From: an alpha proteobacterium MED-G09
GTDB taxonomy: Bacteria > Pseudomonadota > Alphaproteobacteria > MED-G09
Assembly (NCBI GenBank): GCA_905182015.1
Contig: CAJIZT010000008.1
Span: 57,801 to 121,800 of the forward strand
DNA: 64,000 nucleotides
Reading direction: 5' to 3'
This document shows positions 13,938 to 49,546 of the stretch, in pieces. The notes below the pieces were generated by a model. That model had not been told where the DNA came from and made no database searches. It saw nothing but the letters and a program-made list of their open reading frames with translations. Position 1 is the stretch's first letter, and every line of letters starts with the position of its first letter. The position numbers and the translations under genes were made by a program.

Positions 13938-13946
13938 GGTATATAA

Positions 13947-22383: not shown

Positions 22384-22544
22384 AAAAAAATTAAAATAGA
22401 AATTACTTTTACAACAGGTCTATTATTATTCCTCTAATAATGAATGACCTTGAGCTAATGACTTTTGGAAGAAAGCAAATTAATTTATGAAAAATTTGTA
22501 GCTTTGTTGTCTATAAATGGCATGATAATTGTAATTTTAGATAA

Positions 22545-23837: not shown

Positions 23838-23852
23838 TTTATTAACCGCTAA

Positions 23853-24827: not shown

Positions 24828-24853
24828 TTTTATTATCCCTTACTGATTTTAAT

Positions 24854-25204: not shown

Positions 25205-25216
25205 TCTCCTATAAAA

Positions 25217-25762: not shown

Positions 25763-25795
25763 AGTAAACCCCCTTTATTTTATTAAGACCACTCC

Positions 25796-27145: not shown

Positions 27146-27266
27146 TTTCTCGCTCTATTTAAGTTACCGAATTCAACAATATATTAACATTAAAATTACA
27201 TATGATACAAATCAGCAAAAATATAACTAATAGTCAATAATTAATGAATGATGTAAGATTGTTGTA

Positions 27267-28199: not shown

Positions 28200-28288
28200 C
28201 TATATAGCATTTATAAAAGTTTTTACTAGGTAAAATTTGTATTTTATATATGTAATGATAAATAAAATTAATAGATTAGAGTAGATAC

Positions 28289-29850: not shown

Positions 29851-29996
29851 AAAAAGGTGTGTAAGTTGTGTTAATGTATCCTTAAAAACCATATAATACC
29901 TCAAAAAAAATTATATTCATCTATTATTTTTTTTAATTATATGTATATATATATAAAATTAAAAAAATTTATAAAAACCCTTAATGAGGATTAACA

Positions 29997-31208
29997 ATGC
30001 TAGATACAGGAAATACCGCGTGGATTTTAACTTCTACAGCCCTAATTCTTTTTATGACTTTGCCTGGTTTAGCGCTCTTTTATGCAGGATTAGTTAAATC
30101 AAAAAATATTTTGTCTGTGCTCATGCAATGTATAGCAATTGCATGTTTAGCTTCCTTAATCTGGCTCAGCATTGGGTATAGTATGGCATTTTCTGAGGGT
30201 AATCAGTGGGTTGGAGGGCTCCAGAAAGTATTCCTTTCAGGTGTTGAGAGAAACTCGTTGACTGGAGATATTCCAGAAACAGTATTCTTTATGTTTCAGA
30301 TGACTTTTGCTATAATTACTCCCGCACTTATGGTTGGTGCTTATGTAGAGAGGATTAAATTTAGTGCGGTATTGCTGTTTAGTGGTCTTTGGCTAATTGC
30401 TGTTTACGCGCCAGTAACTCATTGGATTTGGGGCGGTGGATGGTTGGCTGAAAAAGGAATACTTGATTATGCCGGAGGTCTTGTAGTTCATTTAACAGCT
30501 GGAATATCGGCTCTTGTTTTGGCAGCCGCATTAGGTCCAAGGAAAGGTTTCCCAGATCAGGTTGATCCCCCACATAATCCTGCTTTAGTTATGATTGGAG
30601 CGTCTATGCTCTGGGTTGGGTGGTTTGGATTCAATGCTGGTAGCGCCCTTGCGGCAAATGAAGATGCTGGAATGGCAATGTTAGTTACACATATTTCGGC
30701 GGCAACTGCTTCATTAGTTTGGATGGCTATTGATTGGATAAAATTTGGTAAGCCAACACTTATAGGGCTGGTGACAGGTACAATTGCCGGACTTGCATCA
30801 ATTACTCCAGCATCAGGATTTGTCGGCCCGATTGGAGGTCTTGTTATTGGATTCTCAGCAGGCATAGTTTGTTATATCCTAGTTTCTTTTGTTAAAAGTA
30901 GTCTTAGGGTTGATGATTCATTAGACGTTTTTGCTGTTCACGGAGCTGGAGGGGTTCTTGGAATTATTCTTGTCTCTTTTCTTGCGGACACAAGGTTCGG
31001 AGGAGTTGGTTATGCCGAGGGTATGGACTCTATAAGTCAATTAGGTGTTCAAGGATTGGGTATTGCAGCTGTATTGACTTGGTCAGTCATAGCATCATTA
31101 ATAATAATTTTAATTGTTAAGGCCGTCACAGGCCTTAGAGTAGATCCTAGCTTTGAAGAAGAAGGTCTCGATATATCTTCTCATGGCGAGACAAATTATC
31201 GGCAATAA
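29997..31208 (+). CDS. amt: Ammonium transporter.
   Basis: 11-TM Amt/MEP signature with DYAGGLVVHLTAG and GAVAERIKF-like motifs. The product is 403 aa. Confidence 0.9.
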   Translation: MLDTGNTAWILTSTALILFMTLPGLALFYAGLVKSKNILSVLMQCIAIACLASLIWLSIGYSMAFSEGNQWVGGLQKVFLSGVERNSLTGDIPETVFFMFQMTFAIITPALMVGAYVERIKFSAVLLFSGLWLIAVYAPVTHWIWGGGWLAEKGILDYAGGLVVHLTAGISALVLAAALGPRKGFPDQVDPPHNPALVMIGASMLWVGWFGFNAGSALAANEDAGMAMLVTHISAATASLVWMAIDWIKFGKPTLIGLVTGTIAGLASITPASGFVGPIGGLVIGFSAGIVCYILVSFVKSSLRVDDSLDVFAVHGAGGVLGIILVSFLADTRFGGVGYAEGMDSISQLGVQGLGIAAVLTWSVIASLIIILIVKAVTGLRVDPSFEEEGLDISSHGETNYRQ

Positions 31209-31269
31209 AATATTTACTTATTTTAATCTATTACTATAGTATATTCCTATTGGCCAGTAAGGGGATATT

Positions 31270-32703
31270 ATGGGAAAAATCGACATACATAGTCTAGCGA
31301 TTGATGGAAAAGATCAAAAAAATCTAAGAGGCGATCCGATAACAAATGATCGCTACTTTTCTAAAGATTTTATGACAAAAGAATGGGACAATATGTGGAC
31401 TAAGGTCTGGCTAATAGCTGGCAGAGAAGTTCAAATTAAAGAGCCCGGTGACTATATTGTTCATGACCTTATAACAGAATCTGTAATTATTGTTAGACAA
31501 GACGATGGATCAATAAAAGGCTTCTATAATAGCTGTGCCCACAGAGGTCAGAGACTTGTTAATTTTGATAGCTCACAAGATTCTTTTAGATGTCCCTATC
31601 ATGATTGGCAATTTGGATTAAACGGAGATGTAATTGGCTGCCCAGATCCCGATGACTTTCCTGAAGGAAGTCCAATCGGAAAAAGAAAATTAGTAGAGGT
31701 TCGGGTAGATAGCTGGGATGGTTTTATTTTTTATACTATGAGTGACGAGGCGCCTGAGCTTTTAGAGTATCTAGATCCTTTGCCTGAAATTTATAAAAAT
31801 CATAATTTTAAAGATCAGATTAGAGCTCAATGGGTAAGAGTAGAGCTAGATGTTAATTGGAAATATTTTTGTGATAATTTTAACGAGTCATACCACACAA
31901 GATTTGTGCACCCTCAAGTTCCTTCAGTAATAGATCAAGATCATTTTACTTCAAGATATGAAATGTTTCCTAAAGGTCATGCAAGAATTGTCCAAATGGG
32001 TCGGCCTTCTTTGCGTGATAGAATTCCTGAAGGTGAAGATCATCCCTTTAAAATGCTTCTGGAGGACTGGGGGATAGATATAACCAAATATCCTGATTAT
32101 GAAACACTTTCTGAGCAAGGGTGGGTAGACCTAAAGGAAGCCAAAAGAAAAAATTATAAAGAAAAAGGTTATCATCATTATGAAAATCTCTCAGATGAAG
32201 AGTTAACTGAAAGTCCTTTTCAATTTATTTTTCCAAATATTGCCATGGGTGTTCAAGCAGACGGCTGCATTCTTTTAAATTGGTTCCCTCATCCGACAGA
32301 TCCTGAAAAATGTTTTTTTGATCTTTGGGACATGGGTTATCCAATCGGTGGTGCAGCGAAAGGAATAGGTAAAACAGGTAGAGAGAACGATCAAGAATTT
32401 ACTTCAACATCAGCAGGTATAGGTAAAAAAGATAGTTACGTTGGGGAATTTGTTAGTCGTACTAAAGTAAATCCAGTTAAACTTCAAGAAGTTGAATTAG
32501 ATTTTCGTGATTATGATGGAGGGAAAGGTGTTGAAGATCTATGGGATCATGTTGTTTATCAAGACTGGCAGCTTACAGATGGTTTAAGGCGCGGCGTTAG
32601 ATCTAGAGGGTATCAAGAACCTTATCTTGCGTCTCAAGAGACAAGAGTAAGATTTTTTCATGAAAAACTTCATGATTATTTAAACGGAAAACCACCGAAA
32701 TAA
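31270..32703 (+). CDS. Rieske non-heme-iron oxygenase alpha subunit (paralog B).
   Basis: FYNSCAHRGQRL...CPYHDWQF, and NFNESYHTRFVH. Confidence 0.85.
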   Translation: MGKIDIHSLAIDGKDQKNLRGDPITNDRYFSKDFMTKEWDNMWTKVWLIAGREVQIKEPGDYIVHDLITESVIIVRQDDGSIKGFYNSCAHRGQRLVNFDSSQDSFRCPYHDWQFGLNGDVIGCPDPDDFPEGSPIGKRKLVEVRVDSWDGFIFYTMSDEAPELLEYLDPLPEIYKNHNFKDQIRAQWVRVELDVNWKYFCDNFNESYHTRFVHPQVPSVIDQDHFTSRYEMFPKGHARIVQMGRPSLRDRIPEGEDHPFKMLLEDWGIDITKYPDYETLSEQGWVDLKEAKRKNYKEKGYHHYENLSDEELTESPFQFIFPNIAMGVQADGCILLNWFPHPTDPEKCFFDLWDMGYPIGGAAKGIGKTGRENDQEFTSTSAGIGKKDSYVGEFVSRTKVNPVKLQEVELDFRDYDGGKGVEDLWDHVVYQDWQLTDGLRRGVRSRGYQEPYLASQETRVRFFHEKLHDYLNGKPPK

Positions 32704-32752
32704 AATTTTTATTCAAAATATAATAAATTCTTAATTTGTAGGAGGGTAAAGA

Positions 32753-33268
32753 ATGACTAAAATAGCAAATATAGATACATTATTAGCTGAGCAGGCAATA
32801 AGGCAAGCTGTAACAGCGTATTCCAGAGGATGTGACCGTTGTGATTTGGATATCTTTAAGTCCGCGTTTCATAATGACGCCGAAGTAAAATATGGAACTT
32901 ACGATGGCCATTATGAAAAATTTTGTGAAGATATTGTAGAAGGAAATTTAACTCTCCAAGATACCTCTCACACAATTATTAATGAGCATTATACTATTGA
33001 TACCGCCTCCAATAAAGCGTCGGGAGAAGTTTATGTTTTAGCATTTTGGGCTGTAGGCGGACATAACTATACATGCTCTGGGCGTTATATCGATAAGTAT
33101 GAATCCAGAAATGACGATTGGAGAATTACATTTCGTCAATACGTCTATGACTGGAGTAGGACTACAGAATATTGCGGAGATGATCCAAACAAGCTATTTG
33201 AGGGGTTAATCTACCGAGGCACACAAAACAAAAATGATCTTTCTTATAAAATATTAAATGAAAAATAA
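32753..33268 (+). CDS. SnoaL_4/NTF2-like protein (partner of paralog B).
   Basis: QAVTAYSRGCDRCDLDIFKSAFHNDA...GRYIDKYESRNDDWRITFRQ. Confidence 0.6.
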   Translation: MTKIANIDTLLAEQAIRQAVTAYSRGCDRCDLDIFKSAFHNDAEVKYGTYDGHYEKFCEDIVEGNLTLQDTSHTIINEHYTIDTASNKASGEVYVLAFWAVGGHNYTCSGRYIDKYESRNDDWRITFRQYVYDWSRTTEYCGDDPNKLFEGLIYRGTQNKNDLSYKILNEK

Positions 33269-33272
33269 GATA

Positions 33273-34532
33273 TTATTTTTTTAAGAATTTAATTGGTAAC
33301 TCTTTCATCTGATGAATATATAAACTTGAATGATGAGGAATCTCGGGTAGCGGTCTAGCAAGCTCTATATTTTTTAATCTTTCAAATAAGTGTATGAATG
33401 CAGTTTTCATCTCTGCTCGCGCAAGCATTGCTCCAACACAATGATGGGGGCCCGATCCAAAAGCTAAATGTTTACCAACATCCTTACGTTCAACATTAAA
33501 CTCTTCAGGATTTGTAAATATTTCTTCATCCCTATTAAATGACGCATACCTTACTAGCAAAACGCTTCCCTTCTTAATACTCTCTCCATCAATCTCAGTG
33601 TCTTCTGTTACAGTTCGAAAAAGGCCCTGAACAGGTGTTTCAAATCTGATAACCTCCTCAACAAAGTTAGGTATAAGGTCTATATCTTCAATGATTTTAT
33701 TCATTTGTTTGGGATGTTTCAATAAAAGCCAAAGTCCGTGCGCTATTGAACTTGTGGTTGTCTCATTGCCTCCGGCTAATAATTGAGCAACCAGCCCTTG
33801 AAGCTCATCATTAGTTAGGTTCTCACCTCCATCAAGCTTAAGGTTTACTAATTCAGATATAATGTCATCTGTTGGATTTTTTCTCTTATCATTGAATATT
33901 TTATCAAAATAATGTTGGGACTCTGCCTCCAGGTGAGCAGCTTTCTTCATTTCTTCTACGTTTGCAACCCCGAACGAAACAATCATTGCATCTGACCATA
34001 ACTTTAGTTTCGGGAGCATTGATCTTGGTACACCCAGCTGGTCGGCAATAATTGTAGATGGAATTGGAACCGCATAATCATTAACAAACTCACACTCGCC
34101 TTTCTCTATAAAGGAATCAATTAAGTCATTCACGACTTTTGAAATATAAGGCTGCATCTCTTTAACTCTACTAGATGTAAACGCTTTGTTTAATAATTTT
34201 CTATATTTACTGTGTAGAGGTGGGTCTGTTCTTTGAAGTGTCTCCACAAAAGACCCCACACCATAATTCTTAATAATCTCCGCATGTGCCTTAATGCCTT
34301 CGTCTTCATAGCTATCGTGCTGGGTAGGTTTATTAGAAAACTTTTTTGTATCAAGAAGAATTTGTCTTCCATCTTTATATTTTGTGATCATATAAAAGCC
34401 TAAATCAGGCATTTTATAGACTGGGCATTCTGCTCGAAGATTCTTATAGCTCTCATATGGGCAACTTTGAATCTTGGGATCCATAAAATTTATATTTTTT
34501 ATTAAAGAGCTCTGCTGATTTTTTTCTTTCAT
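33273..34532 (-). CDS. Cytochrome P450 (paralog 1).
   Basis: Heme-thiolate loop FGSGPHHCVGAMLA, an ExxR motif (EEVIRFETP), and an I-helix AGGNETT. Confidence 0.85.
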   Translation of the reverse strand: MKEKNQQSSLIKNINFMDPKIQSCPYESYKNLRAECPVYKMPDLGFYMITKYKDGRQILLDTKKFSNKPTQHDSYEDEGIKAHAEIIKNYGVGSFVETLQRTDPPLHSKYRKLLNKAFTSSRVKEMQPYISKVVNDLIDSFIEKGECEFVNDYAVPIPSTIIADQLGVPRSMLPKLKLWSDAMIVSFGVANVEEMKKAAHLEAESQHYFDKIFNDKRKNPTDDIISELVNLKLDGGENLTNDELQGLVAQLLAGGNETTTSSIAHGLWLLLKHPKQMNKIIEDIDLIPNFVEEVIRFETPVQGLFRTVTEDTEIDGESIKKGSVLLVRYASFNRDEEIFTNPEEFNVERKDVGKHLAFGSGPHHCVGAMLARAEMKTAFIHLFERLKNIELARPLPEIPHHSSLYIHQMKELPIKFLKK

Positions 34533-34724
34533 TTTTTTTATTCTTTTTAAGTTATCTATTAATTTACTCTAATTAATTGAAATAAAAATTAAATAGAAAA
34601 AATCAATTAATCGGGGTTTCATACTCAAGCATGAGCATAAAAAGTAAAATCCTTATAGAAATTTTATTACTTTCTCCTAGAATATTAAGTCTTAGTATCA
34701 ATAAAATAATGGAGGCCTTGAACT

Positions 34725-37013
34725 ATGCTAGATATCAAAAATATTCTTTTAATTACTAGTGCAATTTTTTTAATTGCCCCAGTTAACACTTTATTCTCTC
34801 AAGAATCACCGATTGAAAACACTTATGGCTTAGAAGAAATAGTTGTTACAGCTCAAAAAAGAGAGGACTCTATTCAGACAGTCCCTATAGCTATAACAGC
34901 AGTCAGCGGAGATATTTTAGATCAACGAGCTGTTGTTAATCTTGAAAGCTTACAAGGTTTAGTCCCGGGTGCCCAGATTGGACAATTCGCAAATACTCCT
35001 CATGGCGCAGTATTTAATATTAGGGGTATGGGAGCTATTGAGCCAGATCCATATGCAGGTAGTGCTGTTTTGGTTACAATCGATGGTGTTCCGCAATATT
35101 TTAATATGACCTCATTAGTTGACCTATTTGACGTTGAACGTGTTGAGGTTTTAAGGGGACCACAAGGAACTCTATTTGGTGCTAATTCCACTGGAGGCGT
35201 TGTAAATATTATAACAAAAGCTCCTTCAGGTGAATATAATGGGAAGGTCCAAGTTACTGCTGGGGATTGGAACAGATTAGATGTCAAGGCTGCTGCAGAT
35301 TTACCAATAAACGAAAAATTATCTCTTAGGCTTTCAGGCTTTCATCACGGACGTGATGGATGGATTATAAATGCTTATGACGGTTCTGACATGGGAAGTG
35401 TTAATGTAAACTCTATCCGTGCAACTTTAAGATATGATGCAGGATCCGGTTTTGAAGCAACATGGCGTAATGAAATTTTAAGATCAAAAAATGGAGGCCC
35501 GTATATAGGTATGGGCGCTTATCCAGGTGAGGCAGAATATACGGCACCGGGAACGATAGGTGCGGGACAGCATGGCGGAGTACAGTATGCCAGTTATTGC
35601 ATGCCTGAAGGTACCCCTTGTAAAGCTCGTGATACATATTATTCTGCCAATAGCTCAGAAAAAGATATGTCAGATATGAATGTAGATTCCTCAACTCTAG
35701 AAATGGTCTGGAATGATACATCATTTGGAACAATCACCTCAATTACAAGTTATAAAAAGTTTGATCTTCATGAGTACACTGATCAAGATGGTACTGTTGT
35801 ATATCATTCTGGAACAGATCGTAGGACTGACGGCGACCAAATGACTCAAGAAATAAGAATTAATTCTGAAGTTTCAGATAACATAGATGTAGTTTACGGT
35901 TTATATCTTAGTGAAGACTCGTATTATCACACACAAAACTTTAATGCTCAATTCGCTTCCCCCGGCTTTAGTCAGCTATCGTCCCAAGATCAAGAAAGAA
36001 GCTCACAAGCATTATTTGCTCATAGCTTTATTGATTTATCAGACAAACTGAGACTCCAGGTTGGTGGTCGATATTCAAAAGAAGAAGCTGATATGAAAGT
36101 TGAAGTAGTAAATTTCATAAGCTTAGATGGTATATCAAGATACTTTGGGGACGATCGTCTGGCTGATTTTGGTATAGACTTTGGTGCATCAGGTAAGGAT
36201 GAGTGGACTGATTGGTCTGCAAAAGCTGGTCTTGACTACCAAATTTCAGAGAACACTTTGGCATACGGACATATATCACGTGGCTTTAAATCTGGAGGCT
36301 TCGTTGGAAGAATTACAGTTCCTGAAGATATTGGTCCATATGATCCAGAAATAGTTGAAACCATCGAAATTGGTGTAAAAAGTGATCTATTGGATAATAA
36401 ATTAAGATTGAATATAAATATTTTTAAAAATGACTATCAAGATCTTCAATTAGCATTAATTTATTTTACAAAAAATGCAGCGGGCTTTGATGTAAATGGT
36501 AATTCAATACTTAATGCTGCCGATGCAACTACTCAAGGTATTGAAGTAGAGTTTTTCGCTGCACCATCTGCTGCCCTTAGAGTTAATGGATCAGTAACTT
36601 ATCTTGACGCAGAGTATGATGATTTTCCATACTTAAATACTGATGGTTCTACCACCAACTTAAGGGGGTATAGATTACAAAATTCTCCAGAAATTACAGC
36701 CAGCTTTGGTTTTGATTATACTTGGAGAATGGGTGATGGAGATATGAGCTTATCTGCATTATATAAATATAATGATGAAAAGTTTAATACCAGTCTATTA
36801 AACACACCTCGATCAACTATTCAGGAAACAGACTTGGTTGATGCTAATCTTATGTGGAGTCCTGACAGTGATGACTGGTCAGTAAATTTTTGGGTTAAAA
36901 ATATTGCTGACGAAAGATATATTTCTAGTGTTTTTGAGGCACCTGGAGTTTTAGCAATCGTAAACTTTTTACCCCCAAGGGAGTTCGGAGTGTCTTTTGA
37001 TTTTAATTGGTAA
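34725..37013 (+). CDS. TonB-dependent outer-membrane receptor (TBDR-1).
   Basis: Signal peptide; plug domain with EEIVVTAQKRE and VLRGPQGTLFG; a long beta-barrel ending in an aromatic residue (FDFNW). Confidence 0.85.
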   Translation: MLDIKNILLITSAIFLIAPVNTLFSQESPIENTYGLEEIVVTAQKREDSIQTVPIAITAVSGDILDQRAVVNLESLQGLVPGAQIGQFANTPHGAVFNIRGMGAIEPDPYAGSAVLVTIDGVPQYFNMTSLVDLFDVERVEVLRGPQGTLFGANSTGGVVNIITKAPSGEYNGKVQVTAGDWNRLDVKAAADLPINEKLSLRLSGFHHGRDGWIINAYDGSDMGSVNVNSIRATLRYDAGSGFEATWRNEILRSKNGGPYIGMGAYPGEAEYTAPGTIGAGQHGGVQYASYCMPEGTPCKARDTYYSANSSEKDMSDMNVDSSTLEMVWNDTSFGTITSITSYKKFDLHEYTDQDGTVVYHSGTDRRTDGDQMTQEIRINSEVSDNIDVVYGLYLSEDSYYHTQNFNAQFASPGFSQLSSQDQERSSQALFAHSFIDLSDKLRLQVGGRYSKEEADMKVEVVNFISLDGISRYFGDDRLADFGIDFGASGKDEWTDWSAKAGLDYQISENTLAYGHISRGFKSGGFVGRITVPEDIGPYDPEIVETIEIGVKSDLLDNKLRLNINIFKNDYQDLQLALIYFTKNAAGFDVNGNSILNAADATTQGIEVEFFAAPSAALRVNGSVTYLDAEYDDFPYLNTDGSTTNLRGYRLQNSPEITASFGFDYTWRMGDGDMSLSALYKYNDEKFNTSLLNTPRSTIQETDLVDANLMWSPDSDDWSVNFWVKNIADERYISSVFEAPGVLAIVNFLPPREFGVSFDFNW

Positions 37014-37039
37014 AAATATATAATATATAAGATAAATCT

Positions 37040-37100
37040 GCCTTTACGTTTTTCATCAAAATATTCTTTAATTAAGAATATTGAAGAAACGTAAGGGCAT
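37040..37100. terminator. Long AT-rich imperfect hairpin between the convergent TBDR-1 and GFA genes; a candidate bidirectional terminator.
   Basis: CCTTTACGTTTTTCATCAAAATATTCTTTA, an 8-nt spacer, then AAGAATATTGAAGAAACGTAAGGG as imperfect inverted arms. T-runs follow on both strands. Confidence 0.35.
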
Positions 37101-37117
37101 TTTTATTTCTTTAAAGC

Positions 37118-37525
37118 CTAAGATATAGGATTCCTTTTAAAGCTTGGAAGATCATCATTTACTGGGTCCCATTTATTTGCAGAGATACTCCAGTAACTTG
37201 ATTCCGCTTTAACCCAAGAGGAATTATCTAGACTGCCAGCCTTTATGAATCTCAGATCAGGCTGCTCTGTTACATAGCTTATAACTGGAGAACCACAATC
37301 TGGACAAAAACCTCTATTTACATTAGTTCCGTCTGTGCCAATAACAGAATATATTTTGAAATCCATACTAATTTCTAAATCCTCAGTTGGAACAAATATA
37401 ATCGTTGCCTTTCCTGACCCTGTTGCTCGCTGACAGTCAGCACAATGACAATGACCCGAAGAAAGAACTCTTTCTCTATTAAATTTATAACGAATTTTAC
37501 CGCATAAACATCCACCTGTTTCCAT
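37118..37525 (-). CDS. GFA (glutathione-dependent formaldehyde-activating / CENP-V-like) family zinc protein.
   Basis: CLCGKIRY, then GHCHCADCQRATGS, then GFCPDCGSPV: the characteristic Cys pattern of PF04828. Confidence 0.7.
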   Translation of the reverse strand: METGGCLCGKIRYKFNRERVLSSGHCHCADCQRATGSGKATIIFVPTEDLEISMDFKIYSVIGTDGTNVNRGFCPDCGSPVISYVTEQPDLRFIKAGSLDNSSWVKAESSYWSISANKWDPVNDDLPSFKRNPIS

Positions 37526-37547
37526 TATTATTCTCCTTCCTTTATTG

Positions 37548-38558
37548 CTATTCCATTTCCTTTATCCATTCATAGATAACAGGCAAAGCTTCTTTATGAC
37601 TCAGACTTCTACTGAGTTCTGGCATCATGACACCTGGATCTGTTGAAGCCATTCTGAACAAAAGAATGGATTCCTCTGGCTTACCAGGATTAATAACGTA
37701 TTCCATATTGCCGCTTCCTCTTCCGGCCGCCACAGGTTTTTTCATAACACCAATCGCCATCCTACCAACCTCTTCTAAGGAAAGATAAAGTCCAGAATTA
37801 CCTGCTGAACCTCCTTTTCTGTGACAGTGAGCACAATTAGAATCTAAATAAGACCTTGCTCTTTCAGGAATTAAAAAGGTTTCATCATTCCAAATAGCTG
37901 GCTTTATCATTTTTTTCTTAGGAACGTCCTTGAGTAACTTATTTTCTTCCCAATAGTCTATTTGATTTTCTTTACCACTTTGATAGAAAAAATCTAAATC
38001 CATATTTCTACCTTTAGGACCGATTGGCATTATTGCTTTATTGAGTTGGTGACAAGACTTACACTGATTAATATTTGGAACTCTATATCGAGCATTCCTT
38101 ACATTTCCATTCTTATCTATCCAATTAGCTTCTATGGTTTTACCAATAAATTTTAATTTTGCATCTGTTTGATTTTCATTCCATACATAAGAAACAGGTG
38201 TCCATCCTTCTTTTTTATGAATCAAAAGTCTTGTCTCAAGCAATTGAAACCCTTTCTTTAAATCCCTATCATCAACTGGGTAAGCGAAAGTCTTGATTAT
38301 TGTTGTTCCAAGAGGAAAATTAAAGATATTTTCGTAGTTATAGGACGCTACCTTATTGTCTGGCATTGAAATAAAACGAAATTTATAGGTATAGTCTGAA
38401 AATAAAGGATTAGCTATATGATAAGGTATCACCCCCTCTTTTGGAATCTGCTCTCTAATATTTTTAAAAAAATTATACTCTGATAAAAATAAAGGCTCTG
38501 CTTTTAGCGAACTTATTAGAAAAAACGTCACAAGGATAATTATAAAATATTTTATCAA
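37548..38558 (-). CDS. Secreted diheme c-type cytochrome (SO_2930-like family).
   Basis: Signal peptide, two CxxCH motifs (CKSCH, CAHCH), and a Met-rich C-terminus (DPGVMMPELS). Confidence 0.65.
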   Translation of the reverse strand: MIKYFIIILVTFFLISSLKAEPLFLSEYNFFKNIREQIPKEGVIPYHIANPLFSDYTYKFRFISMPDNKVASYNYENIFNFPLGTTIIKTFAYPVDDRDLKKGFQLLETRLLIHKKEGWTPVSYVWNENQTDAKLKFIGKTIEANWIDKNGNVRNARYRVPNINQCKSCHQLNKAIMPIGPKGRNMDLDFFYQSGKENQIDYWEENKLLKDVPKKKMIKPAIWNDETFLIPERARSYLDSNCAHCHRKGGSAGNSGLYLSLEEVGRMAIGVMKKPVAAGRGSGNMEYVINPGKPEESILLFRMASTDPGVMMPELSRSLSHKEALPVIYEWIKEME

Positions 38559-38563
38559 ATGAG

Positions 38564-39799
38564 CTAATCCTGTAAAAAGACTACAGGCTTAATAGACTCT
38601 AACTCGCCCATATAATTACTGTAATTGTTATCAATCTTATGAATTATTGGTACTAAAAATTTTGTCATTAATTTTAAATTAACAAAATCTGCTTTGCCAG
38701 ATTCTGTAAAATTACTTCCCAGGGTTACTCTACTGGAGGGACTAATACCTATCCATTCAATAAACGGGACAACGCCATCCCAAACGATTTCAGGAATCTT
38801 GCCATTTATAGCATCGGATATAGGCTTAGCCCTTACCTTATCAACATCAAATCCATTATTATTTAAAGTATTGCCATGAATATAAATATGATTTCCTATT
38901 GGATCATAGTTTTTATCTTCTGCCTCATCCTGATAGCTTGCAATTAAAATGCCAGTTGTTGCATTATTCTTGATTACATTATCTCTTATCTCAACAAATT
39001 GATTGGCCATAATCATTATACCAGTGCCATTTGGTGTGTTCCCAACAATATTTCCTTCGGGTGCAAAATTCTTAGTGTCATTATTAATAACAAGATTATT
39101 TGCCACTAAAATATCATGACCACCTTGCTGAGGAAGGTCGGGCAAATCAAAAATCAGAATACCTCCTGTATTATGTTCTGCAGTATTACCTATAACTTCT
39201 GCAAAATAACTGTTTTCGATCTCAATACCTGCGACATTATATTTTGCTAAACTATTTAAAACTTTTATTCTTTCAGATTGGCCAACATAAATTCCAGCAT
39301 CTGATGCACCTATCGCTATACAGCTATCTATTAAGACATCACTGCTTTGAACGGGATAAAGACCATAGGCTCCATTTGATTCTTTTGGACCACCCGTCCA
39401 CTCAACCCGAATCCTAATAAAACTAATGCCATTGGCTCCTTTAACAACAATTGCATCTCCAATCGTATCCTCGATAGCAAAATCTTTTAAAACAACACCG
39501 CTTGAAGTTACTAATAAACCCTCTGCACCTGATTTCTGATTCTTAAAAGATAAAATTGTTTTATCTTCACCTTCACCTGCAACAGTTACGTTGTCTATAT
39601 CTAAAGATAGGCCATCCTCAAATTCGAAAATTCCTTCTGATAATTGGATTAGATCACCTGGTTTTGAAAAAATTAATGCTTTTTGTATTTCGTCATAAGC
39701 ACGAGGGCCAGGCTGGATCGTATTAGAAAAAAGAGAACTGATTAAACCTATAAAAACAAAAATATTTAAAATAATAATATTTAAGAATTTTTTTTTCAT
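38564..39799 (-). CDS. Secreted parallel beta-helix repeat protein.
   Basis: Signal peptide, then repeated Asn/Gly-rich rungs (NNLVINNDTKNF, GNTPNGTGIMIMANQFVEIRDNVIKNNATTGILIAS). Confidence 0.65.
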   Translation of the reverse strand: MKKKFLNIIILNIFVFIGLISSLFSNTIQPGPRAYDEIQKALIFSKPGDLIQLSEGIFEFEDGLSLDIDNVTVAGEGEDKTILSFKNQKSGAEGLLVTSSGVVLKDFAIEDTIGDAIVVKGANGISFIRIRVEWTGGPKESNGAYGLYPVQSSDVLIDSCIAIGASDAGIYVGQSERIKVLNSLAKYNVAGIEIENSYFAEVIGNTAEHNTGGILIFDLPDLPQQGGHDILVANNLVINNDTKNFAPEGNIVGNTPNGTGIMIMANQFVEIRDNVIKNNATTGILIASYQDEAEDKNYDPIGNHIYIHGNTLNNNGFDVDKVRAKPISDAINGKIPEIVWDGVVPFIEWIGISPSSRVTLGSNFTESGKADFVNLKLMTKFLVPIIHKIDNNYSNYMGELESIKPVVFLQD

Positions 39800-39803
39800 A
39801 GAA

Positions 39804-41051
39804 TTATCTTTTTCTAAATTTAATATGAAGCTCTTTTAGCTGATGTAAAAAAATACTCGGTTGATGAGGAATATCTGGTAGGTCTTTAGCTAGCTCGATA
39901 CCATCAATACGATCGAAGAAATGTTTAAAGGCTGCTAGCATTTCCGCCCTAGCCAAACTTGCCCCGATACAATGATGAGCGCCTGATCCAAAAGCAAGAT
40001 GTTTTCCAACATCTTTTCGTTCCACATTAAATATCTCAGGATCCTCGAATATATCTTCATCTCTATTTAATGCAGCATATCTGACCAGAAGAGTACTTCC
40101 TTTTGGGATCTTTACACCTCTCATCTCAGTATCGACTGTTGCCGTTCTAAAAAGGCCTTGAACAGGGGTCTCATAACGAATAGTTTCCTCAATAAATTTT
40201 GAAATAAGATCGTTATTTTCCATAACTTTTTTCATTTGCTCTGGGTGTCTTAATAATAACCACATTCCGTGCGCTATTGAACTTGTTGTTGTCTCATTTC
40301 CACCTGTTAATAATTGATTGATCAGATCTTGAAGCTCATCTTCTGTTAACTTTCTTTCTCCATTAAAGTCAGCATTAACTAACTCTGATATAATATCGTC
40401 TGTAGGTTTTATTCTTTTTTCCTCAAAAATACCTTTAAAATAATGTTGGGACTCAACCTCAAGACGAGCCGCATTTTCCATCTCCTCCACACTCGCCATC
40501 CCGCTAGCCGGAATTAACATTGCATCTGACCAGGATTTAAATTTACCTAAGTACTCTCTTGGAACACCTAACTGATCAGCAATAATTGTACACGGAATAG
40601 GCACGGCATATTCTGAAACAAAATCACATTCGCCGTTATCAATAAACCCATCAATTAAGTCATTGACGACACCAGAAATGTAAGGATTCATTTCCTTAAC
40701 CCTGCTTAAGCCAAAGGCTTTATTTAAAAGTTTACGATATTTTGTATGAATTGGCGGATCTGTTCTTTGGAGTGTCTCTGGTCTTTTACCAAAACCCTCG
40801 GTATTCATTATTTCATGATGGCGTTTTACGCCTTCACTTTCATAGCCTTGTTGATGTGAGTATGTATTAGAAAAAGTAACGGTATCTTTCATAACCATCC
40901 TAGCATCATCATACTTCGTGATCATATAAAATCCTACCTCTGGCATCTTATAGACAGGACACTCGGATCTAAGGGTTTTATAAGCTTCATAAGGACAGCT
41001 TTGTGTTGCCGGGTCCATAAAGCTTATCGATTCTAAGTCTAATTTACTCAT
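39804..41051 (-). CDS. Cytochrome P450 (paralog 2).
   Basis: FGSGAHHCIGASLA, an ExxR motif (EETIRYETP), and TGGNETT. It shares about 60% identity with paralog 1 by eye. Confidence 0.85.
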   Translation of the reverse strand: MSKLDLESISFMDPATQSCPYEAYKTLRSECPVYKMPEVGFYMITKYDDARMVMKDTVTFSNTYSHQQGYESEGVKRHHEIMNTEGFGKRPETLQRTDPPIHTKYRKLLNKAFGLSRVKEMNPYISGVVNDLIDGFIDNGECDFVSEYAVPIPCTIIADQLGVPREYLGKFKSWSDAMLIPASGMASVEEMENAARLEVESQHYFKGIFEEKRIKPTDDIISELVNADFNGERKLTEDELQDLINQLLTGGNETTTSSIAHGMWLLLRHPEQMKKVMENNDLISKFIEETIRYETPVQGLFRTATVDTEMRGVKIPKGSTLLVRYAALNRDEDIFEDPEIFNVERKDVGKHLAFGSGAHHCIGASLARAEMLAAFKHFFDRIDGIELAKDLPDIPHQPSIFLHQLKELHIKFRKR

Positions 41052-41075
41052 AAAAATCCCCCCCGAGATAATTTT

Positions 41076-41984
41076 TTATACTCTATCCCAATTATGTTTT
41101 TTTATCCAATCTTCAAAATACGTTGGCTTAACGCCTAGCATTTTATAAACTGGATCCATATCAACCGCCAGAGGTGACGGGTTTTGTTCATTATACCAGC
41201 TATAAAAAGCAGCCATCCCCCCATAAATAGATTGGTCCTCATATACTTCTGATCCGGTCACCAATTTACTCATTGATCCAGCAAAATTTTCCGGCTTCAG
41301 GCTTGAGAAAGTAATTTCACGACCAAGTACTTTTGTAAATTTTTTAGCTACCTCATCTCCAAGAAGAACCTCGGGACCCCCGACTAGAATCTTATCTCTT
41401 TTAAAGTTATTATTAGATAACGCTGCAACCATAAAAGCCGCCACATCATCAAGACATATCCATGATATTTTTAACTCTGGTGAGCATGGGTAGGCAAAGG
41501 TATTATTATTTGTAATAGATGGTTTAGACCAAAAACGAGTAAGGTTATCCATAAAGACTACTGACCGAATAACAACATACTCCATGCCGCTTTCTTCCAT
41601 ACACCTTTCAATCTCTCTTCTTCCATCATGAGCCTCTAAACCATTATCCTTGGGCGCAACATAACAACTGGTATTAAAAACAATTTTCTTTACTCCCATT
41701 TTTGCACCGGCTTTTGTAATATTTTCCCCCCATTGTTTTGCGGTTGCTTTATCAAAAACAAATGGCAAATTCATTGCGATAGCATCAACTCCATCGGATG
41801 CAACCATTAGGGATTCTAAGTCAAAAAGATCGGCTCGAATTGTTTCAATATTTTTAGAAAAGTCATCATTATATTCTGAAGGATTCCGAGTTACTGCTCG
41901 AACCTTATATCCTTTTTCCAATAATACATTCACAAGTGGTACGCCCTGATCTCCACTAGCTCCATAAACAAGGATTTTATTCAT
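41076..41984 (-). CDS. NmrA-like NAD(P)-binding protein. The tracked ORF extends to 42005; the likely start is MNKILVYGASGDQG.
   Basis: N-terminal Rossmann motif LVYGASGDQG. The size fits the NmrA/PCBER family. Confidence 0.65.
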   Translation of the reverse strand: MNKILVYGASGDQGVPLVNVLLEKGYKVRAVTRNPSEYNDDFSKNIETIRADLFDLESLMVASDGVDAIAMNLPFVFDKATAKQWGENITKAGAKMGVKKIVFNTSCYVAPKDNGLEAHDGRREIERCMEESGMEYVVIRSVVFMDNLTRFWSKPSITNNNTFAYPCSPELKISWICLDDVAAFMVAALSNNNFKRDKILVGGPEVLLGDEVAKKFTKVLGREITFSSLKPENFAGSMSKLVTGSEVYEDQSIYGGMAAFYSWYNEQNPSPLAVDMDPVYKMLGVKPTYFEDWIKKHNWDRV

Positions 41985-43623
41985 TATAGCTCTCCTTACT
42001 AACATAATTATTACCAGCGGCGTGTCTACCTGCTAAATATCCGTAAGTTAAGGCTGGTCCTAATGTTCCTCCAGCACCTGCATAAACAGACCCGGTACTT
42101 CCTGACATAGCGTTCCCGACTGTATAAAGGCCCTCGATAACACTTCCTGATGCTGAAATAACTCTCCCAAGCTCGTCTGTCCTTGCGCCACCATTTGTTC
42201 CTAATGCTCCAATATTAATTTCAGCAGCAAAGTATGGAGCTTTTTCAAGTTTGCCTAAAGTTGAATAGACGCCAGCCTTAGATCGATCGCCATAGAATGA
42301 ATCGTACTCACTTTTACCCCTAGAAAACTCTATATCATCCCCGTTCTCAACATAAGAATTAAAAAAATTTACTGTTTCAATTAAATTTTCAGAATTGATA
42401 TCCAGTTCCTCGGCCAAGCCTTCTAAAGTACCCGAATGCTTTAGCCAGTCTGGGTTTTCAGATCCAGGCATTACATTAGCAAAAGGGTATTTATCTCTAT
42501 AATTAGAATCAAAGATTATCCATGATGGTAAATTTGGATACCCGTATTCATTTGGATCAAAAAAATGAAATGCACCTGCTAGTGCAGAATAATTAGTTGC
42601 TTCGTTACAAAATCTTTTTCCAAACTTATTGACCATAAGAGAGTGCGGAAGAGTTCTTTCAATTAAAATAGGCGATGATTTTTGCCCTCCCTCAGGCCAA
42701 TTATCGCCAGGTATGGATAGAACGGGAGACCACCAAGCGCTTGTCATATTTCCAAGAGATGCTCCGATTTCTTGTACCATTTTCAATCCGTCACCATCAT
42801 TTCCTGGAGGAGAAGCTGGAGCATTTAAAGGGCCACGTAAAAAAGTAGAAACAAAATCTTTATTCCACTCAAAACCGCCAGTTGCAATAATTACTCCTCG
42901 CCGAGCAATAATAGTTTCCAAAACACCATCCTGTTCAATTTCAATACCAATAATTCTTTCACCTTCCTTAATTAACTTTTTAGTTTTTATTTCTAATTGT
43001 GGTTCAATACCTCTATCAAGGCAGCCCTTCAAAAGAGCTCCAACCAATGCTTGTCCAAACCCTCTTGAATCCTTTTTAACCCGCTTAGACATTATTTCGT
43101 TTGAAATAATCCCTGTCCCACCTCCTAGTGGGGTTTCGGCTAAGGTCATAGGAATAGGCATACCATTGTTTCTGACCTTTGAGGCCCAGTCACCCAGGAT
43201 AGAAAAATCAAACAGTTTGTTATCTAATGCACGGCCGCCATCCTTAAGGGCGCCAGGCCTATCAAGATAGTAATCGGGATATCCCTCTAGAATGGAAAAC
43301 TCTGCATCAGTTTTTTCTTCTAAAAAGTCTAAAGCTTCACCGCAATTATCAATAAATGCTTCTAGTAGGGATTGATTTATTTCTCCCTGCGAGAGAGACA
43401 TGAAATAATCAATAGATTTAGTTCTATCATCTTGTATGCCTTTTTTCTTCATGTGGCTATTCATCGGAGCCCAAATTATACCTCCAGAAATACCTGCCGT
43501 TCCTCCCACTAAAGATTGTTTTTCAAAAATCTTTACTGATGAACCACTTTCATGGGCACTAAGTGCAGCCATCATGCCGCTAGCGCCTGCACCTAAGATC
43601 ACTACATCAACTTCTTTTTTCAT
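41977..43623 (-). CDS. FAD-dependent oxidoreductase of the fumarate-reductase flavoprotein / 3-ketosteroid-delta1-dehydrogenase (KstD)-like family.
   Basis: N-terminal VDVVILGAGASGMMAAL, a C-terminal GLYTVGNAMSGSTGSVYAGAGGTLG, and an FAD_binding_2 architecture. The product is 548 aa. Confidence 0.75.
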   Translation of the reverse strand: MKKEVDVVILGAGASGMMAALSAHESGSSVKIFEKQSLVGGTAGISGGIIWAPMNSHMKKKGIQDDRTKSIDYFMSLSQGEINQSLLEAFIDNCGEALDFLEEKTDAEFSILEGYPDYYLDRPGALKDGGRALDNKLFDFSILGDWASKVRNNGMPIPMTLAETPLGGGTGIISNEIMSKRVKKDSRGFGQALVGALLKGCLDRGIEPQLEIKTKKLIKEGERIIGIEIEQDGVLETIIARRGVIIATGGFEWNKDFVSTFLRGPLNAPASPPGNDGDGLKMVQEIGASLGNMTSAWWSPVLSIPGDNWPEGGQKSSPILIERTLPHSLMVNKFGKRFCNEATNYSALAGAFHFFDPNEYGYPNLPSWIIFDSNYRDKYPFANVMPGSENPDWLKHSGTLEGLAEELDINSENLIETVNFFNSYVENGDDIEFSRGKSEYDSFYGDRSKAGVYSTLGKLEKAPYFAAEINIGALGTNGGARTDELGRVISASGSVIEGLYTVGNAMSGSTGSVYAGAGGTLGPALTYGYLAGRHAAGNNYVSKESYNE

Positions 43624-43685
43624 TTAACTTTTCCTTTTGAGAAACATTAATCAAAAAATTAGAATTTATCTAGATAAAAAAAAGG

Positions 43686-43701
43686 GCTCCGCGGAGCCCT
43701 A
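43686..43701 (-). terminator. Intrinsic terminator just downstream of TBDR-2 (GC-rich palindrome with a U-run on the minus strand).
   Basis: GGGCTCCGCGGAGCCC is a perfect palindrome. It is flanked by AAAAAAAA on the plus strand, which is an 8-U tail on the minus strand. Confidence 0.6.
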
Positions 43702-48165: not shown

Positions 48166-48190
48166 TTATCTTAATAATAAAGGATTTAAA

Positions 48191-49543: not shown

Positions 49544-49546
49544 AGA

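What the first reader, a model, noticed from the sequence alone, without database searches (positions are those of the whole stretch)
37548..39799. Secreted parallel beta-helix protein paired with a diheme c-type cytochrome inside a P450 operon
Two tightly adjacent minus-strand genes (5-nt gap) both carry signal peptides. The first is a 411-aa right-handed beta-helix repeat protein. The second is a 336-aa protein with two CxxCH heme motifs and a Met-rich C-terminus. I recall this pairing as a conserved but functionally uncharacterised gene couple (the SO_2930-type diheme cytochrome next to a beta-helix protein), but I cannot confirm that here. In this window the pair sits between a cytochrome P450 (4 nt upstream) and a GFA-family zinc protein, in the same operon as a KstD-like flavoprotein and an NmrA-like protein. 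That placement suggests a periplasmic redox or processing step coupled to cytoplasmic oxidation of an imported substrate. A beta-helix fold normally binds glycans or other polymers, which is an odd partner for a c-type cytochrome.
Basis: partly seen in the sequence, partly recalled or inferred. Interest (0 to 1): 0.65.

Follow-up and report, generated by a model that had tools for sequence, protein, structure and literature searches.

The report
Conserved beta-helix plus dihaem cytochrome pair
Two adjacent genes encode an exported beta-helix protein and a two-haem cytochrome that almost always occur together in aquatic bacteria; databases already list the pair, its function is unknown, and its position next to a P450 gene here results from a local genome inversion.

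Summary
Two minus-strand genes lie 5 nt apart: 38564-39799 (411 aa) and 37548-38558 (336 aa). Both encode exported proteins. They match NCBIfam TIGR03805 (parallel beta-helix) and TIGR03806 (SO2930-family dihaem cytochrome c) over their full length and above the curated cut-offs.

The pairing is strongly conserved. The beta-helix gene sits directly upstream of the cytochrome gene in 79 of 80 species-level genomes from Alpha- and Gammaproteobacteria and Bacteroidota. Natural beta-helix-cytochrome fusion proteins also exist. No solved structure and no paper on its function was found.

The P450 context is not conserved. In sister PS1/OCS116 lineages the pair follows a NUDIX gene, and the KstD-NmrA-P450 operon lies about 7 kb away on the other strand. 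An inversion of about 17 kb (window 22545-39799) placed the pair 4 nt behind the P450 gene. Other taxa have unrelated neighbours.

Best reading: a self-contained periplasmic haem oxidoreductase, made of an open-site haem, a His/Met relay haem and a beta-helix substrate-binding partner. The substrate is unknown.

The parts
38564..39799 (-). Exported parallel beta-helix protein, 411 aa, TIGR03805 family. This is the first gene of the conserved pair.
37548..38558 (-). Exported dihaem c-type cytochrome, 336 aa, TIGR03806 / SO2930 family. This is the second gene of the pair.
   Evidence: ORF. TIGR03806 370.6 bits against cut-off 313.3, residues 24-335. Pfam Cytochrom_C 22.6 bits against cut-off 21.3. 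AF2 model pLDDT 78, pTM 0.77.
38034..38489 (-). N-terminal beta-rich domain of the cytochrome (residues about 24-175), ending in the first haem motif. It resembles cytochrome P460/c'-beta.
38049..38063 (-). First haem-attachment motif, CKSCH (C166-H170).
   Evidence: Read from the sequence. Invariant in 93 diverse members.
37821..37835 (-). Second haem-attachment motif, CAHCH (C242-H246).
   Evidence: Read from the sequence. Invariant in 93 diverse members.
37617..37640 (-). DPGVMMPE motif (D307-E314). M312 is the only invariant Met and is the probable axial ligand of haem 2.
   Evidence: M312 and P313 are invariant. The PSCyt1 (PF07635) match covers residues 283-313, and 85 of 93 members match it.
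37118..37525 (-). GFA-family protein, 135 aa, no signal peptide. It is a lineage-specific third gene of the operon and not part of the conserved module.
   Evidence: Pfam GFA 90.7 bits. It is adjacent to the pair only in part of the PS1 clade. It is absent next to the pair in L014-L017 and in all other taxa.
39804..43623 (-). KstD-family FAD enzyme, NmrA-like protein and P450. These upstream operon genes are joined to the pair only in this lineage.
   Evidence: Pfam and NCBIfam matches. The same three genes lie about 7 kb away on the opposite strand in L014, L015 and L017.
43683..43700 (-). Intrinsic terminator after the TonB-dependent receptor gene. It marks the upstream limit of the KstD-to-GFA transcription unit.
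   Evidence: Seven-pair stem with 5 GC pairs, followed by a T7 run.
22545..39799 (.). Block of about 17 kb that is inverted relative to sister genomes. Its end at 39799 puts the beta-helix start 4 nt behind the P450 stop.
   Evidence: Gene-order comparison of the window with L001, L009 and L014-L017 (NUDIX-bh-cyt arrangement) and with L006-L008 and L011-L013 (same arrangement as the window).
37039..37099 (-). Nested hairpin between the convergent GFA and TonB-dependent receptor genes. It is the probable terminator of the operon.
   Evidence: Folding gives -24.3 kcal/mol and z -5.9 against shuffles. Sequence read.

Best explanation
The two genes encode the catalogued but uncharacterised TIGR03805/TIGR03806 module. 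I read it as a self-contained, Sec-exported two-protein unit that works as one complex in the periplasm.

Shown:
- Family membership of both proteins.
- Near-universal bh-to-cyt gene order.
- Natural fusions in the same order.
- No conserved third partner.
- The P450 adjacency derives from an inversion.

Inferred: the cytochrome has two different haems.
- Haem 1 (CKSCH) sits on a beta-sheet domain resembling cytochrome P460/c'-beta and has no invariant sixth ligand. It is probably an open-site or weakly ligated reactive haem.
- Haem 2 (CAHCH) lies in a PSCyt1/class-I-like segment with the invariant Met312. It probably relays electrons to or from soluble periplasmic carriers.

The beta-helix protein has no redox-cofactor motif. 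It has an invariant acidic and aromatic surface on consecutive coils (SDAGIYVGQS, NVAGIEIENS, GGILxFDLP, NFAPxGN). I take it as the substrate-binding or substrate-positioning subunit.

Most likely mechanism (inference): a haem-dependent periplasmic oxidoreductase. The substrate is held by the beta-helix, chemistry occurs at haem 1, and electrons pass through haem 2. The substrate is unknown. In this window the module is co-transcribed with KstD-NmrA-P450 only because of a recent rearrangement.
For: - Membership: both proteins full length and above cut-off.
- Co-conservation: bh lies immediately upstream of cyt on the same strand in 71 loci by ORF calling and in 8 more by tblastn. That is 79 of 80 species-level genomes across PS1/OCS116, SAR86, SAR92, Parvibaculaceae, Kordiimonas, Phenylobacterium, Rhizobiaceae, Woeseiaceae and several Bacteroidota families.
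- Gene overlaps of 4 nt in relatives suggest translational coupling.
- Fusions: 14 of the best 150 family representatives are 728-812 aa with the cytochrome part C-terminal. P0252, P0287 and P0331 carry both TIGR03805 and TIGR03806 above cut-off, with one N-terminal signal peptide and only two CxxCH motifs.
- No third partner: no other gene cluster is adjacent in more than 12 of the 80 loci, and neighbours differ by lineage.
- Two unlike haems: across 93 diverse members the invariant residues are E108, W119, A133, P161, both CxxCH motifs, G270, S297, M312 and P313. That gives one Met and no extra His for two haems.
- Relay role: PSCyt1 and Cytochrom_C matches to the haem-2 segment. Other family architectures append an extra c-type haem domain, TIGR02603.
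- Export: signal peptides in all aligned homologues, and lipobox-like motifs in 51 of 93 cytochromes.
- Inversion.
Against: - No experimental data exist for any member in the searched literature.
- The haem regions have low model confidence, with pLDDT 45-60 around residues 240-280. Model coordinates could not be inspected, so the geometry of haem 1 relative to the beta-helix is unknown.
- A sixth ligand for haem 1 could still be a well-conserved Lys, Tyr or His: K59, K89, K273, Y124, Y158, or H321 at 81%.
- Some family members occur without an adjacent beta-helix gene (L093, L094), so the cytochrome does not absolutely need it.
- The beta-helix fold itself points to carbohydrate-active enzymes, which have no known link to haem chemistry.
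- In the window and its 77%-identity sister clade the pair really is co-transcribed with the P450 operon, so a secondarily acquired functional link cannot be excluded.
Confidence: 0.5

Rival explanations
1. One reading: the pair performs a periplasmic redox or processing step belonging to the P450/KstD/NmrA catabolic pathway, acting on a substrate imported through the nearby TonB-dependent receptors.
For: - In the window the pair is 4 nt behind the P450 gene, with no terminator until after GFA, and the transcription unit starts after the terminator at 43683-43700.
- The same arrangement is kept in a sister clade at 77% beta-helix identity.
- The region is rich in Rieske, SnoaL_4, P450, ECH and SDR genes.
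- Twelve alphaproteobacterial loci have a divergent TetR regulator next to the pair.
Against: - The adjacency is derived. PS1/OCS116 relatives have NUDIX-bh-cyt, with KstD-NmrA-P450 convergent about 7 kb away.
- P450, KstD and NmrA are absent within 10 kb in 76 of 80 species-level loci.
- In the ancestral arrangement the pair is packed just as tightly behind a NUDIX gene (1-7 nt). Tight spacing in these compact genomes is therefore not evidence of shared function.
Confidence: 0.1
2. A small-molecule detoxification haem protein for NO, hydroxylamine or peroxide, analogous to cytochrome P460, c'-beta or dihaem peroxidases. The beta-helix would act only as scaffold or anchor.
For: - P460/c'-beta-like N-domain.
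- One haem lacks an invariant sixth ligand, and a His/Met relay haem is present.
- The genomic context is scattered and housekeeping-like.
- An AurF-like di-iron N-oxygenase lies directly upstream in 8 SAR86/gammaproteobacterial loci.
Against: - The similarity is weak.
- Known P460 and c'-beta proteins are stand-alone homodimers without a beta-helix partner (background knowledge).
- This model does not explain the highly conserved groove of the beta-helix.
- CCP_MauG is matched weakly by only 7 of 93 members.
Confidence: 0.15
3. A periplasmic metal-handling pair for Fe, Mn or Cu. A NosD-like beta-helix would bind metal ions through its acidic residues, and a FoxE-like dihaem cytochrome would oxidise or reduce them.
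- Invariant Asp and Glu residues on consecutive coils.
- TonB-dependent receptors lie nearby in the window and in Kordiimonas loci.
Against: - TIGR04247 NosD scores 27 bits against a cut-off of 300.
- No nosZ, nosFY or nosL genes are nearby.
- The beta-helix has no invariant His, Cys or Met.
- The FoxE hit is marginal, and TonB-dependent receptor adjacency is not general.
Confidence: 0.1
4. A MauG/MbnH-type relationship: the dihaem protein is a maturation enzyme that oxidatively modifies a Trp or Tyr of the beta-helix protein to create a protein-derived cofactor.
For: - Invariant W134, Y145, Y148 and Y171 in the beta-helix, which has no other cofactor motif.
- A dihaem partner is encoded immediately downstream.
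Against: - The cytochrome does not have the CCP/MauG fold. The haem motifs are 76 residues apart, the N-domain is beta-rich, and PF03150 is matched weakly by only 7 of 93 members.
- Stoichiometric fusions and cytochrome-only architectures with extra haem domains fit a stable redox partner better than a maturase.
Confidence: 0.07
5. The beta-helix protein is an ordinary polysaccharide lyase, epimerase or hydrolase, and the cytochrome is functionally unrelated. The two are merely co-located.
- The weak sequence match to phage phi29 gp12 covers the conserved SDAGI/GIEIE coils.
- Sulfatase genes lie nearby in 7 Bacteroidota and other loci.
Against: - The gene order is fixed in 79 of 80 loci across phyla, and natural fusions exist.
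- No CAZyme or PUL context is seen in most loci.
- Identity to any characterised enzyme is only 11-18%.
Confidence: 0.05

Closest known systems
TIGR03805 / TIGR03806 gene pair (SO2930-type dihaem cytochrome with a parallel beta-helix protein; NCBIfam/TIGRFAMs)
   Same: Both window proteins match full length and above the curated cut-offs. The gene order, export signals and occasional fusion are as in the rest of the family.
   Different: Nothing essential differs; this is an orthologue from a PS1/OCS116-type marine alphaproteobacterium. It is peculiar only in its derived position behind a P450 gene and the clade-specific GFA gene downstream.
Cytochrome P460 / cytochrome c'-beta (PF16694)
   Different: The window protein is below Pfam's cut-off (11.5 bits against 27). 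It carries a second, His/Met-type haem segment and has an obligate beta-helix partner. The Lys-haem cross-link and dimer of true P460 could not be assessed.
NosD, the periplasmic beta-helix of the NosDFY N2O-reductase maturation machinery
   Different: TIGR04247 scores only 27 bits against a cut-off of 300. There are no nosZ, nosF, nosY or nosL genes nearby. Identity is 11%. The partner here is a cytochrome, not an ABC transporter.
Mannuronan C5-epimerases and polysaccharide lyases or hydrolases of the pectin-lyase fold (AlgE4, AlgG, RbmB, GH28, phage depolymerases)
   Different: Identity is only 12-18%, there is no sequence-level family match, no glycan-utilisation context, and the partner is an obligate cytochrome.
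Dihaem enzyme plus partner systems (MauG/pre-MADH, MbnH/MbnP, bacterial dihaem cytochrome c peroxidases)
   Same: A periplasmic dihaem c-type protein, likely with one reactive and one relay haem, encoded next to a non-haem partner.
   Different: The fold differs: a beta-rich N-domain, haem motifs 76 residues apart, and essentially no PF03150 match. The partner family also differs.

Membership tests
TIGR03806 (SO2930 family dihaem c-type cytochrome) | Full-length match to the family model above the curated cut-off | tested here: met
   370.6 bits against 313.3; residues 24-335 match profile positions 4-314 of 314.
TIGR03806 (SO2930 family dihaem c-type cytochrome) | Two conserved CxxCH haem-attachment motifs | tested here: met
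   C166/C169/H170 and C242/C245/H246 are invariant in 93 diverse members.
TIGR03806 (SO2930 family dihaem c-type cytochrome) | Export signal (Sec or lipoprotein), needed for periplasmic haem attachment | tested here: met
   The N-terminus is MIKYFIIILVTFFLISSLKA/EP. Hydrophobic N-termini occur in 86 of 93 members and lipobox-like motifs in 51 of 93. No dedicated signal-peptide predictor was available.
TIGR03806 (SO2930 family dihaem c-type cytochrome) | Covalently bound haem actually present | not testable with these tools
   This needs haem staining or mass spectrometry of the expressed protein.
TIGR03805 (beta_helix_1) | Match to the family model above the curated cut-off | tested here: met
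   372.3 bits against 141.5; residues 38-343 match profile positions 1-314 of 314.
TIGR03805 (beta_helix_1) | Right-handed parallel beta-helix fold | tested here: met
TIGR03805/TIGR03806 two-gene module | The two genes are adjacent, co-oriented and sometimes fused | tested here: met
   The gap is 5 nt in the window. The arrangement holds in 79 of 80 species-level loci. Fusions P0252, P0287 and P0331 exist.
Cytochrome P460 / c'-beta (PF16694) | Sequence match above Pfam's gathering score | tested here: not met
   The window protein scores 11.5 bits, E 0.41, against a cut-off of 27. In the family, 41 of 93 members match at E<=10, best E 5.4e-5. No P460 hit appeared in PDB profile searches.
Cytochrome P460 / c'-beta (PF16694) | Beta-sheet fold with the CxxCH at its C-terminal end | tested here: inconclusive
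Cytochrome P460 / c'-beta (PF16694) | Five-coordinate high-spin haem; Lys-haem cross-link in P460 proper | not testable with these tools
   The only indirect evidence is that one Met is invariant and no extra His is invariant for two haems. K59 and K89 are 97% conserved, but their position relative to the haem is unknown.
NosD (TIGR04247, N2O reductase maturation) | Family-level sequence match and nos gene context | tested here: not met
   27.4 bits against a cut-off of 300. No nosZ, nosFY or nosL genes occur among the neighbours in the window or in the 80 loci.
Dihaem cytochrome c peroxidase / MauG (PF03150) | CCP_MauG domain match | tested here: not met
   The window protein gives no match. 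Only 7 of 93 members match, at E of 0.069 or worse. The N-domain is beta-rich.
Characterised polysaccharide lyase, epimerase or hydrolase families | Sequence-level membership and conserved catalytic residues | tested here: inconclusive
   There is fold similarity only, at 12-18% identity. The best PDB sequence hits are phi29 gp12 at E 2.4e-4 and AlgE4 at E 0.055. No CAZy-specific library was available, and catalytic residues were not mapped because model coordinates are not exposed.
Component of the P450/KstD/NmrA catabolic operon | Adjacency conserved across related genomes | tested here: not met
   The adjacency is present only in the window's sub-clade. Relatives have NUDIX-bh-cyt with the P450 operon elsewhere. 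It is absent in 76 of 80 species-level loci.

The most novel reading that the evidence does not exclude
The TIGR03805/TIGR03806 module is a new class of periplasmic haem enzyme. A P460-like open-site haem would act on a substrate held in the groove of a beta-helix partner, for example by oxidising an N-compound or oxidatively cleaving a polymer, with a built-in His/Met haem wiring it to the respiratory chain. It would be a widespread activity in dominant marine and freshwater heterotrophs (SAR86, PS1, SAR92, Bacteroidota) that nobody has recognised.
Probability: 0.2. Interest if true: 0.75.

Novelty: new member of a known kind. Interest (0 to 1): 0.4.

Why it matters
The family is large. The profile search found 7,967 representatives at 50% identity (E <= 0.001), of which 2,042 scored E <= 1e-30. 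It occurs in some of the most abundant bacterioplankton lineages, yet nothing is known about its function.

Three results here make it more tractable:
- The two proteins are an obligate unit, shown by fusions and a fixed gene order.
- The cytochrome probably combines a P460/c'-beta-like reactive haem with a relay haem.
- Local operon context, such as the P450 operon here, is not a reliable guide to its function.

For this window specifically, the practical result is negative. The P450 link that made the finding look special comes from a rearrangement.

Tried and rejected
1. PDB sequence searches with single proteins and with profiles found no informative relative for the cytochrome. For the beta-helix they found only weak generic hits.
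2. Literature searches for SO2930, SO_2931, TIGR03805, TIGR03806, HNE_0200, InterPro ids, and 'cytochrome P460 + beta-helix' found no functional study. Shewanella papers only list SO_2930 and SO_2931 among c-type or outer-membrane cytochromes. The two TIGR03805 mentions are incidental domain annotations.
3. I looked for a conserved third gene by clustering all ORFs in 93 loci. None was found.
4. I tried to predict the beta-helix structure with a diverse alignment that included locus-derived sequences.
5. A third homologue search with a profile, meant to add diversity, mostly returned the same clade.
6. I did not attempt a complex prediction.
7. I searched for inverted repeats at the two inversion junctions and found only A-rich matches of no significance.
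8. An Rfam scan of the whole window found no riboswitch or regulatory RNA near the operon.
9. NosD, MauG/CCP and polysaccharide-lyase memberships were considered and not adopted (see the membership tests).
Full report
**Observation**

The window holds two minus-strand ORFs exactly as described. One is 38564-39799 (411 aa, ATG start). The other is 37548-38558 (336 aa, TTG start).

Reading the DNA gives the following spacing:
- The P450 gene ends with TAA 4 nt before the beta-helix ATG.
- The beta-helix gene ends with TAG 5 nt before the cytochrome TTG, which has AGGA 9 nt upstream.
- The GFA gene follows 22 nt after the cytochrome stop, behind a strong AAGGAAGGAG site.

The TTG start is supported by orthologues whose N-termini (MIK...) align to it. 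Other gene callers chose a GTG start nine codons later, giving 327 aa, which would remove the charged and hydrophobic part of the signal peptide.

Both proteins begin with typical Sec signal sequences. The cytochrome has CKSCH at residues 166-170 and CAHCH at 242-246.

- a P450 (119 bits);
- an NmrA-like protein;
- a KstD-family FAD enzyme, whose best NCBIfam matches are 4-oxocyclohexanecarboxylate 2-dehydrogenase and 3-oxosteroid 1-dehydrogenase, both below the equivalog cut-offs;
- a GFA-family protein (90.7 bits).

A strong intrinsic terminator at 43683-43700 follows the upstream TonB-dependent receptor gene. A nested hairpin at 37039-37099 follows GFA (-24.3 kcal/mol, z -5.9). The transcription unit is therefore probably KstD-NmrA-P450-beta-helix-cytochrome-GFA.

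**Identity of the pair**

NCBIfam places the cytochrome in TIGR03806, 'SO2930 family diheme c-type cytochrome' (370.6 bits, cut-off 313.3, full length). It places the beta-helix protein in TIGR03805 (372.3 bits, cut-off 141.5).

Pfam sees only generic Beta_helix and NosD repeats in one protein and a marginal Cytochrom_C match in the other.

No solved structure is related by sequence. Seven literature searches found no functional study. Shewanella papers merely list SO_2930 and SO_2931 among cytochromes.

**Size and distribution of the family**

The cytochrome query found 7,473 clusters at 90% identity among the 8,000 candidates scored. The beta-helix query saturated at 8,000. A profile search of 1.84 billion representatives found 7,967 proteins at E<=1e-3 and 2,042 at E<=1e-30.

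In one-genome-per-species contigs, 577 matching stretches were found and the best 80 kept. They come from:
- PS1/OCS116 ('Rhodobiaceae'), which are the closest at 58-62% identity;
- SAR86, SAR92, Parvibaculaceae, Kordiimonas, Phenylobacterium, Rhizobiaceae and Woeseiaceae;
- Bacteroidota (Aquirufa, Arcicella, Emticicia, Saprospiraceae, Chitinophagaceae).

The window is therefore most likely from a PS1/OCS116-type marine alphaproteobacterium. This fits the shared synteny described below.

**Co-conservation**

In those 80 loci I called ORFs and searched them with the two window proteins. The beta-helix gene lies immediately upstream of the cytochrome gene on the same strand in 71 loci.

In 8 high-GC loci my ORF caller failed, and tblastn shows the same arrangement. 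Only L093 has the cytochrome without a beta-helix gene. The total is 79 of 80.

In several relatives the two genes overlap by 4 nt.

Among the best 150 family representatives, 14 are 728-812 aa with the cytochrome part at the C-terminus. P0252, P0287 and P0331 carry both TIGR03805 and TIGR03806 above cut-off, in the same order as the genes. They have a single N-terminal signal peptide and only two CxxCH motifs. Fusion plus fixed gene order is strong evidence that the two proteins work as one unit.

Clustering all ORFs from the 93 loci found no third conserved partner. The most frequent immediate neighbours are:
- a divergent TetR regulator, in 12 alphaproteobacterial loci;
- a MacAB/HlyD-type ABC system, in one SAR86 group;
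- FA_hydroxylase, DUF4399 and DUF2147, in another SAR86 group;
- CobS/CobT-like proteins, an AurF-like protein, BaxI and DUF305, in a third group;
- sulfatases, in some Bacteroidota.

**The P450 context**

Close relatives show two arrangements.

Arrangement A is KstD-NmrA-P450-bh-cyt-GFA. It occurs in the window, in identical contigs L011-L013, and in a clade at 77% beta-helix identity, L006-L008.

Arrangement B is dnaX(-) NUDIX(+) bh cyt (GFA), followed by the same downstream block of Amt, PDT, a CTP-transferase, Rieske and SnoaL_4 genes. It occurs in L001-L003, L005, L009 and L010 and in the species representatives L014-L017.

In L014, L015 and L017 the KstD-NmrA-P450 genes are present but lie at the far end of that block, on the opposite strand and convergent with it.

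In the window the NUDIX gene (21430-22383) is followed by the far end of the block in reverse orientation, and the beta-helix end abuts the P450 gene. The difference is thus a single inversion of about 17 kb (window 22545-39799).

Arrangement B is found in the more distant relatives, so it is the ancestral one.

In arrangement B the pair is packed just as tightly (1-7 nt) behind the unrelated NUDIX gene. In these compact genomes tight spacing says little about function.

Outside the PS1 clade, P450, KstD or NmrA homologues lie within 10 kb of the pair in at most one locus. GFA is adjacent only in part of the PS1 clade.

A secondarily acquired link in this lineage cannot be excluded.

**The cytochrome**

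The AF2 model has pLDDT 78 and pTM 0.77. It shows a confident beta-rich domain over residues about 24-160, leading into a helix that carries CKSCH. Less confident segments around CAHCH follow, then C-terminal helices.

Three lines of evidence tie the N-terminal domain to cytochrome P460/c'-beta:
- Foldseek finds nothing significant, but P460 chains rank 2 and 3 and a c'-beta chain ranks 18.
- Scanning 93 diverse family members against Pfam at a permissive threshold, 41 match PF16694 Cytochrome_P460 (best E 5.4e-5). In the window protein, residues 57-174 align to profile positions 19-118 of 125, which puts the CxxCH in register, at a sub-threshold E of 0.41.

Profile searches of PDB sequences did not recover P460. 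I therefore treat the relationship as probable but remote, and as a resemblance rather than membership.

The second half of the protein matches PSCyt1 in 85 of 93 members and Cytochrom_C in 80 of 93.

Across the 93 members the invariant residues are E108, W119, A133, P161, the two CxxCH motifs, G270, S297, M312 and P313. That gives one invariant Met, no invariant His beyond the motif histidines, and two haems.

The simplest reading is that haem 2 is His/Met312. Haem 1 would then be five-coordinate, or have a Lys or Tyr distal residue, as in P460/c'-beta.

Other family architectures add a further c-type haem domain, TIGR02603. One such protein has no beta-helix neighbour. This fits an electron-relay role for the C-terminal part.

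**The beta-helix protein**

The model has pLDDT 80 and pTM 0.85 and is a standard right-handed parallel beta-helix.

By sequence, the best solved relative is the phi29 gp12 tailspike (E 2.4e-4). The match covers the coils carrying the family's most conserved motifs.

Across 30 diverse members the invariant residues are polar or aromatic: D115, W134, N142, Y145, Y148, D167, Y171, Q174, E193, E195, N196, D218, N244, F245, N250 and D295. No His, Cys or Met is invariant.

The protein therefore looks like a ligand-binding or catalytic groove of the carbohydrate-active type, without a metal or redox cofactor site of its own. NosD membership fails (27 bits against 300, and no nos genes).

**Mechanism**

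Shown: an exported, obligately paired and sometimes fused module with no conserved accessory genes.

Inferred: the redox chemistry resides in the cytochrome. A P460-like reactive haem would be backed by a His/Met relay haem, and the beta-helix would supply substrate binding or positioning.

I commit to a haem-dependent periplasmic oxidoreductase, but the substrate is open. The scattered context argues for a general function rather than a pathway-specific one.

The rivals are listed with their evidence:
- a step in the P450 pathway;
- detoxification of N-oxides or peroxide;
- metal handling;
- MauG-like maturation of the beta-helix protein;
- an unrelated glycan enzyme.

**Novelty and score**

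The pair is already catalogued in NCBIfam/TIGRFAMs, so the window contributes a new member of a known but uncharacterised kind.

What remains interesting is the module itself, which is very widespread, abundant in marine bacterioplankton and unstudied, and the newly noted P460-like domain.

I score interest at 0.4.

Noticed in passing
window 22545-39799: A block of about 17 kb, running from the amidohydrolase genes to the beta-helix gene, is inverted relative to sister PS1/OCS116 genomes (L001, L009, L014-L017). One junction lies just after the NUDIX gene (22384-22544) and the other lies between the P450 stop and the beta-helix start (39800-39803). No significant inverted repeats were found at the junctions.
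   Followed up: yes
window 33273-34532 and 39804-41051: Two P450 paralogues, 67% identical in protein sequence, lie on the same strand and flank the bh-cyt-GFA-TonB-dependent receptor segment.
   Followed up: partly
window 25217-27145, 31270-33268, 48086-50065: Three repeated Rieske-oxygenase plus SnoaL_4 gene cassettes occur, together with ECH, SDR and MFS genes and two TonB-dependent receptors. The region looks like a catabolic island for hydrophobic or alicyclic substrates.
   Followed up: no
window 37039-37099: A nested hairpin, with a 13-bp outer stem and a 9-bp inner stem, lies between the convergent GFA and TonB-dependent receptor genes. It is probably a bidirectional terminator (z -5.9).
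   Followed up: partly
window 38532 vs 38558: Gene callers on identical contigs start the cytochrome at a GTG nine codons downstream, giving 327 aa (P0001). That start truncates the signal peptide. Orthologue alignment favours the TTG at 38558.
   Followed up: yes
L037, L048, L053, L057, L069, L073, L084, L087 (about 1000-14200): In 8 SAR86/gammaproteobacterial genomes the pair is preceded by CobS-like AAA, CobT-like vWA and AurF-like di-iron oxygenase genes. It is followed by a BaxI_1 membrane protein and a 737-aa DUF305 protein. An N-oxygenase next to a P460-like cytochrome is suggestive, but it may only reflect synteny.
   Followed up: no
P0262, P0353, P0366, P0382; L094 6892-10112: Some TIGR03806 cytochromes carry an extra C-terminal c-type haem domain (TIGR02603) plus about 150 further residues. 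In L094 such a gene has no beta-helix neighbour and follows an MrtJ/CPBP-like intramembrane protease gene, which hints at a C-terminal sorting signal.
   Followed up: partly
L093 9334-11029: This is the only one of the 80 species-level loci where the cytochrome gene has no beta-helix gene upstream. The upstream ORF is a 184-aa protein with no NCBIfam match.
   Followed up: partly
L026, L040, L041, L044, L046, L047, L051, L055, L060, L061, L064, L091: A TetR-family regulator gene is divergently transcribed immediately upstream of the pair in 12 alphaproteobacterial genomes. It could be a handle for finding the inducer.
   Followed up: no
window 9024-9097: This tRNA gene is the only Rfam match in the window at gathering threshold.
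   Followed up: no
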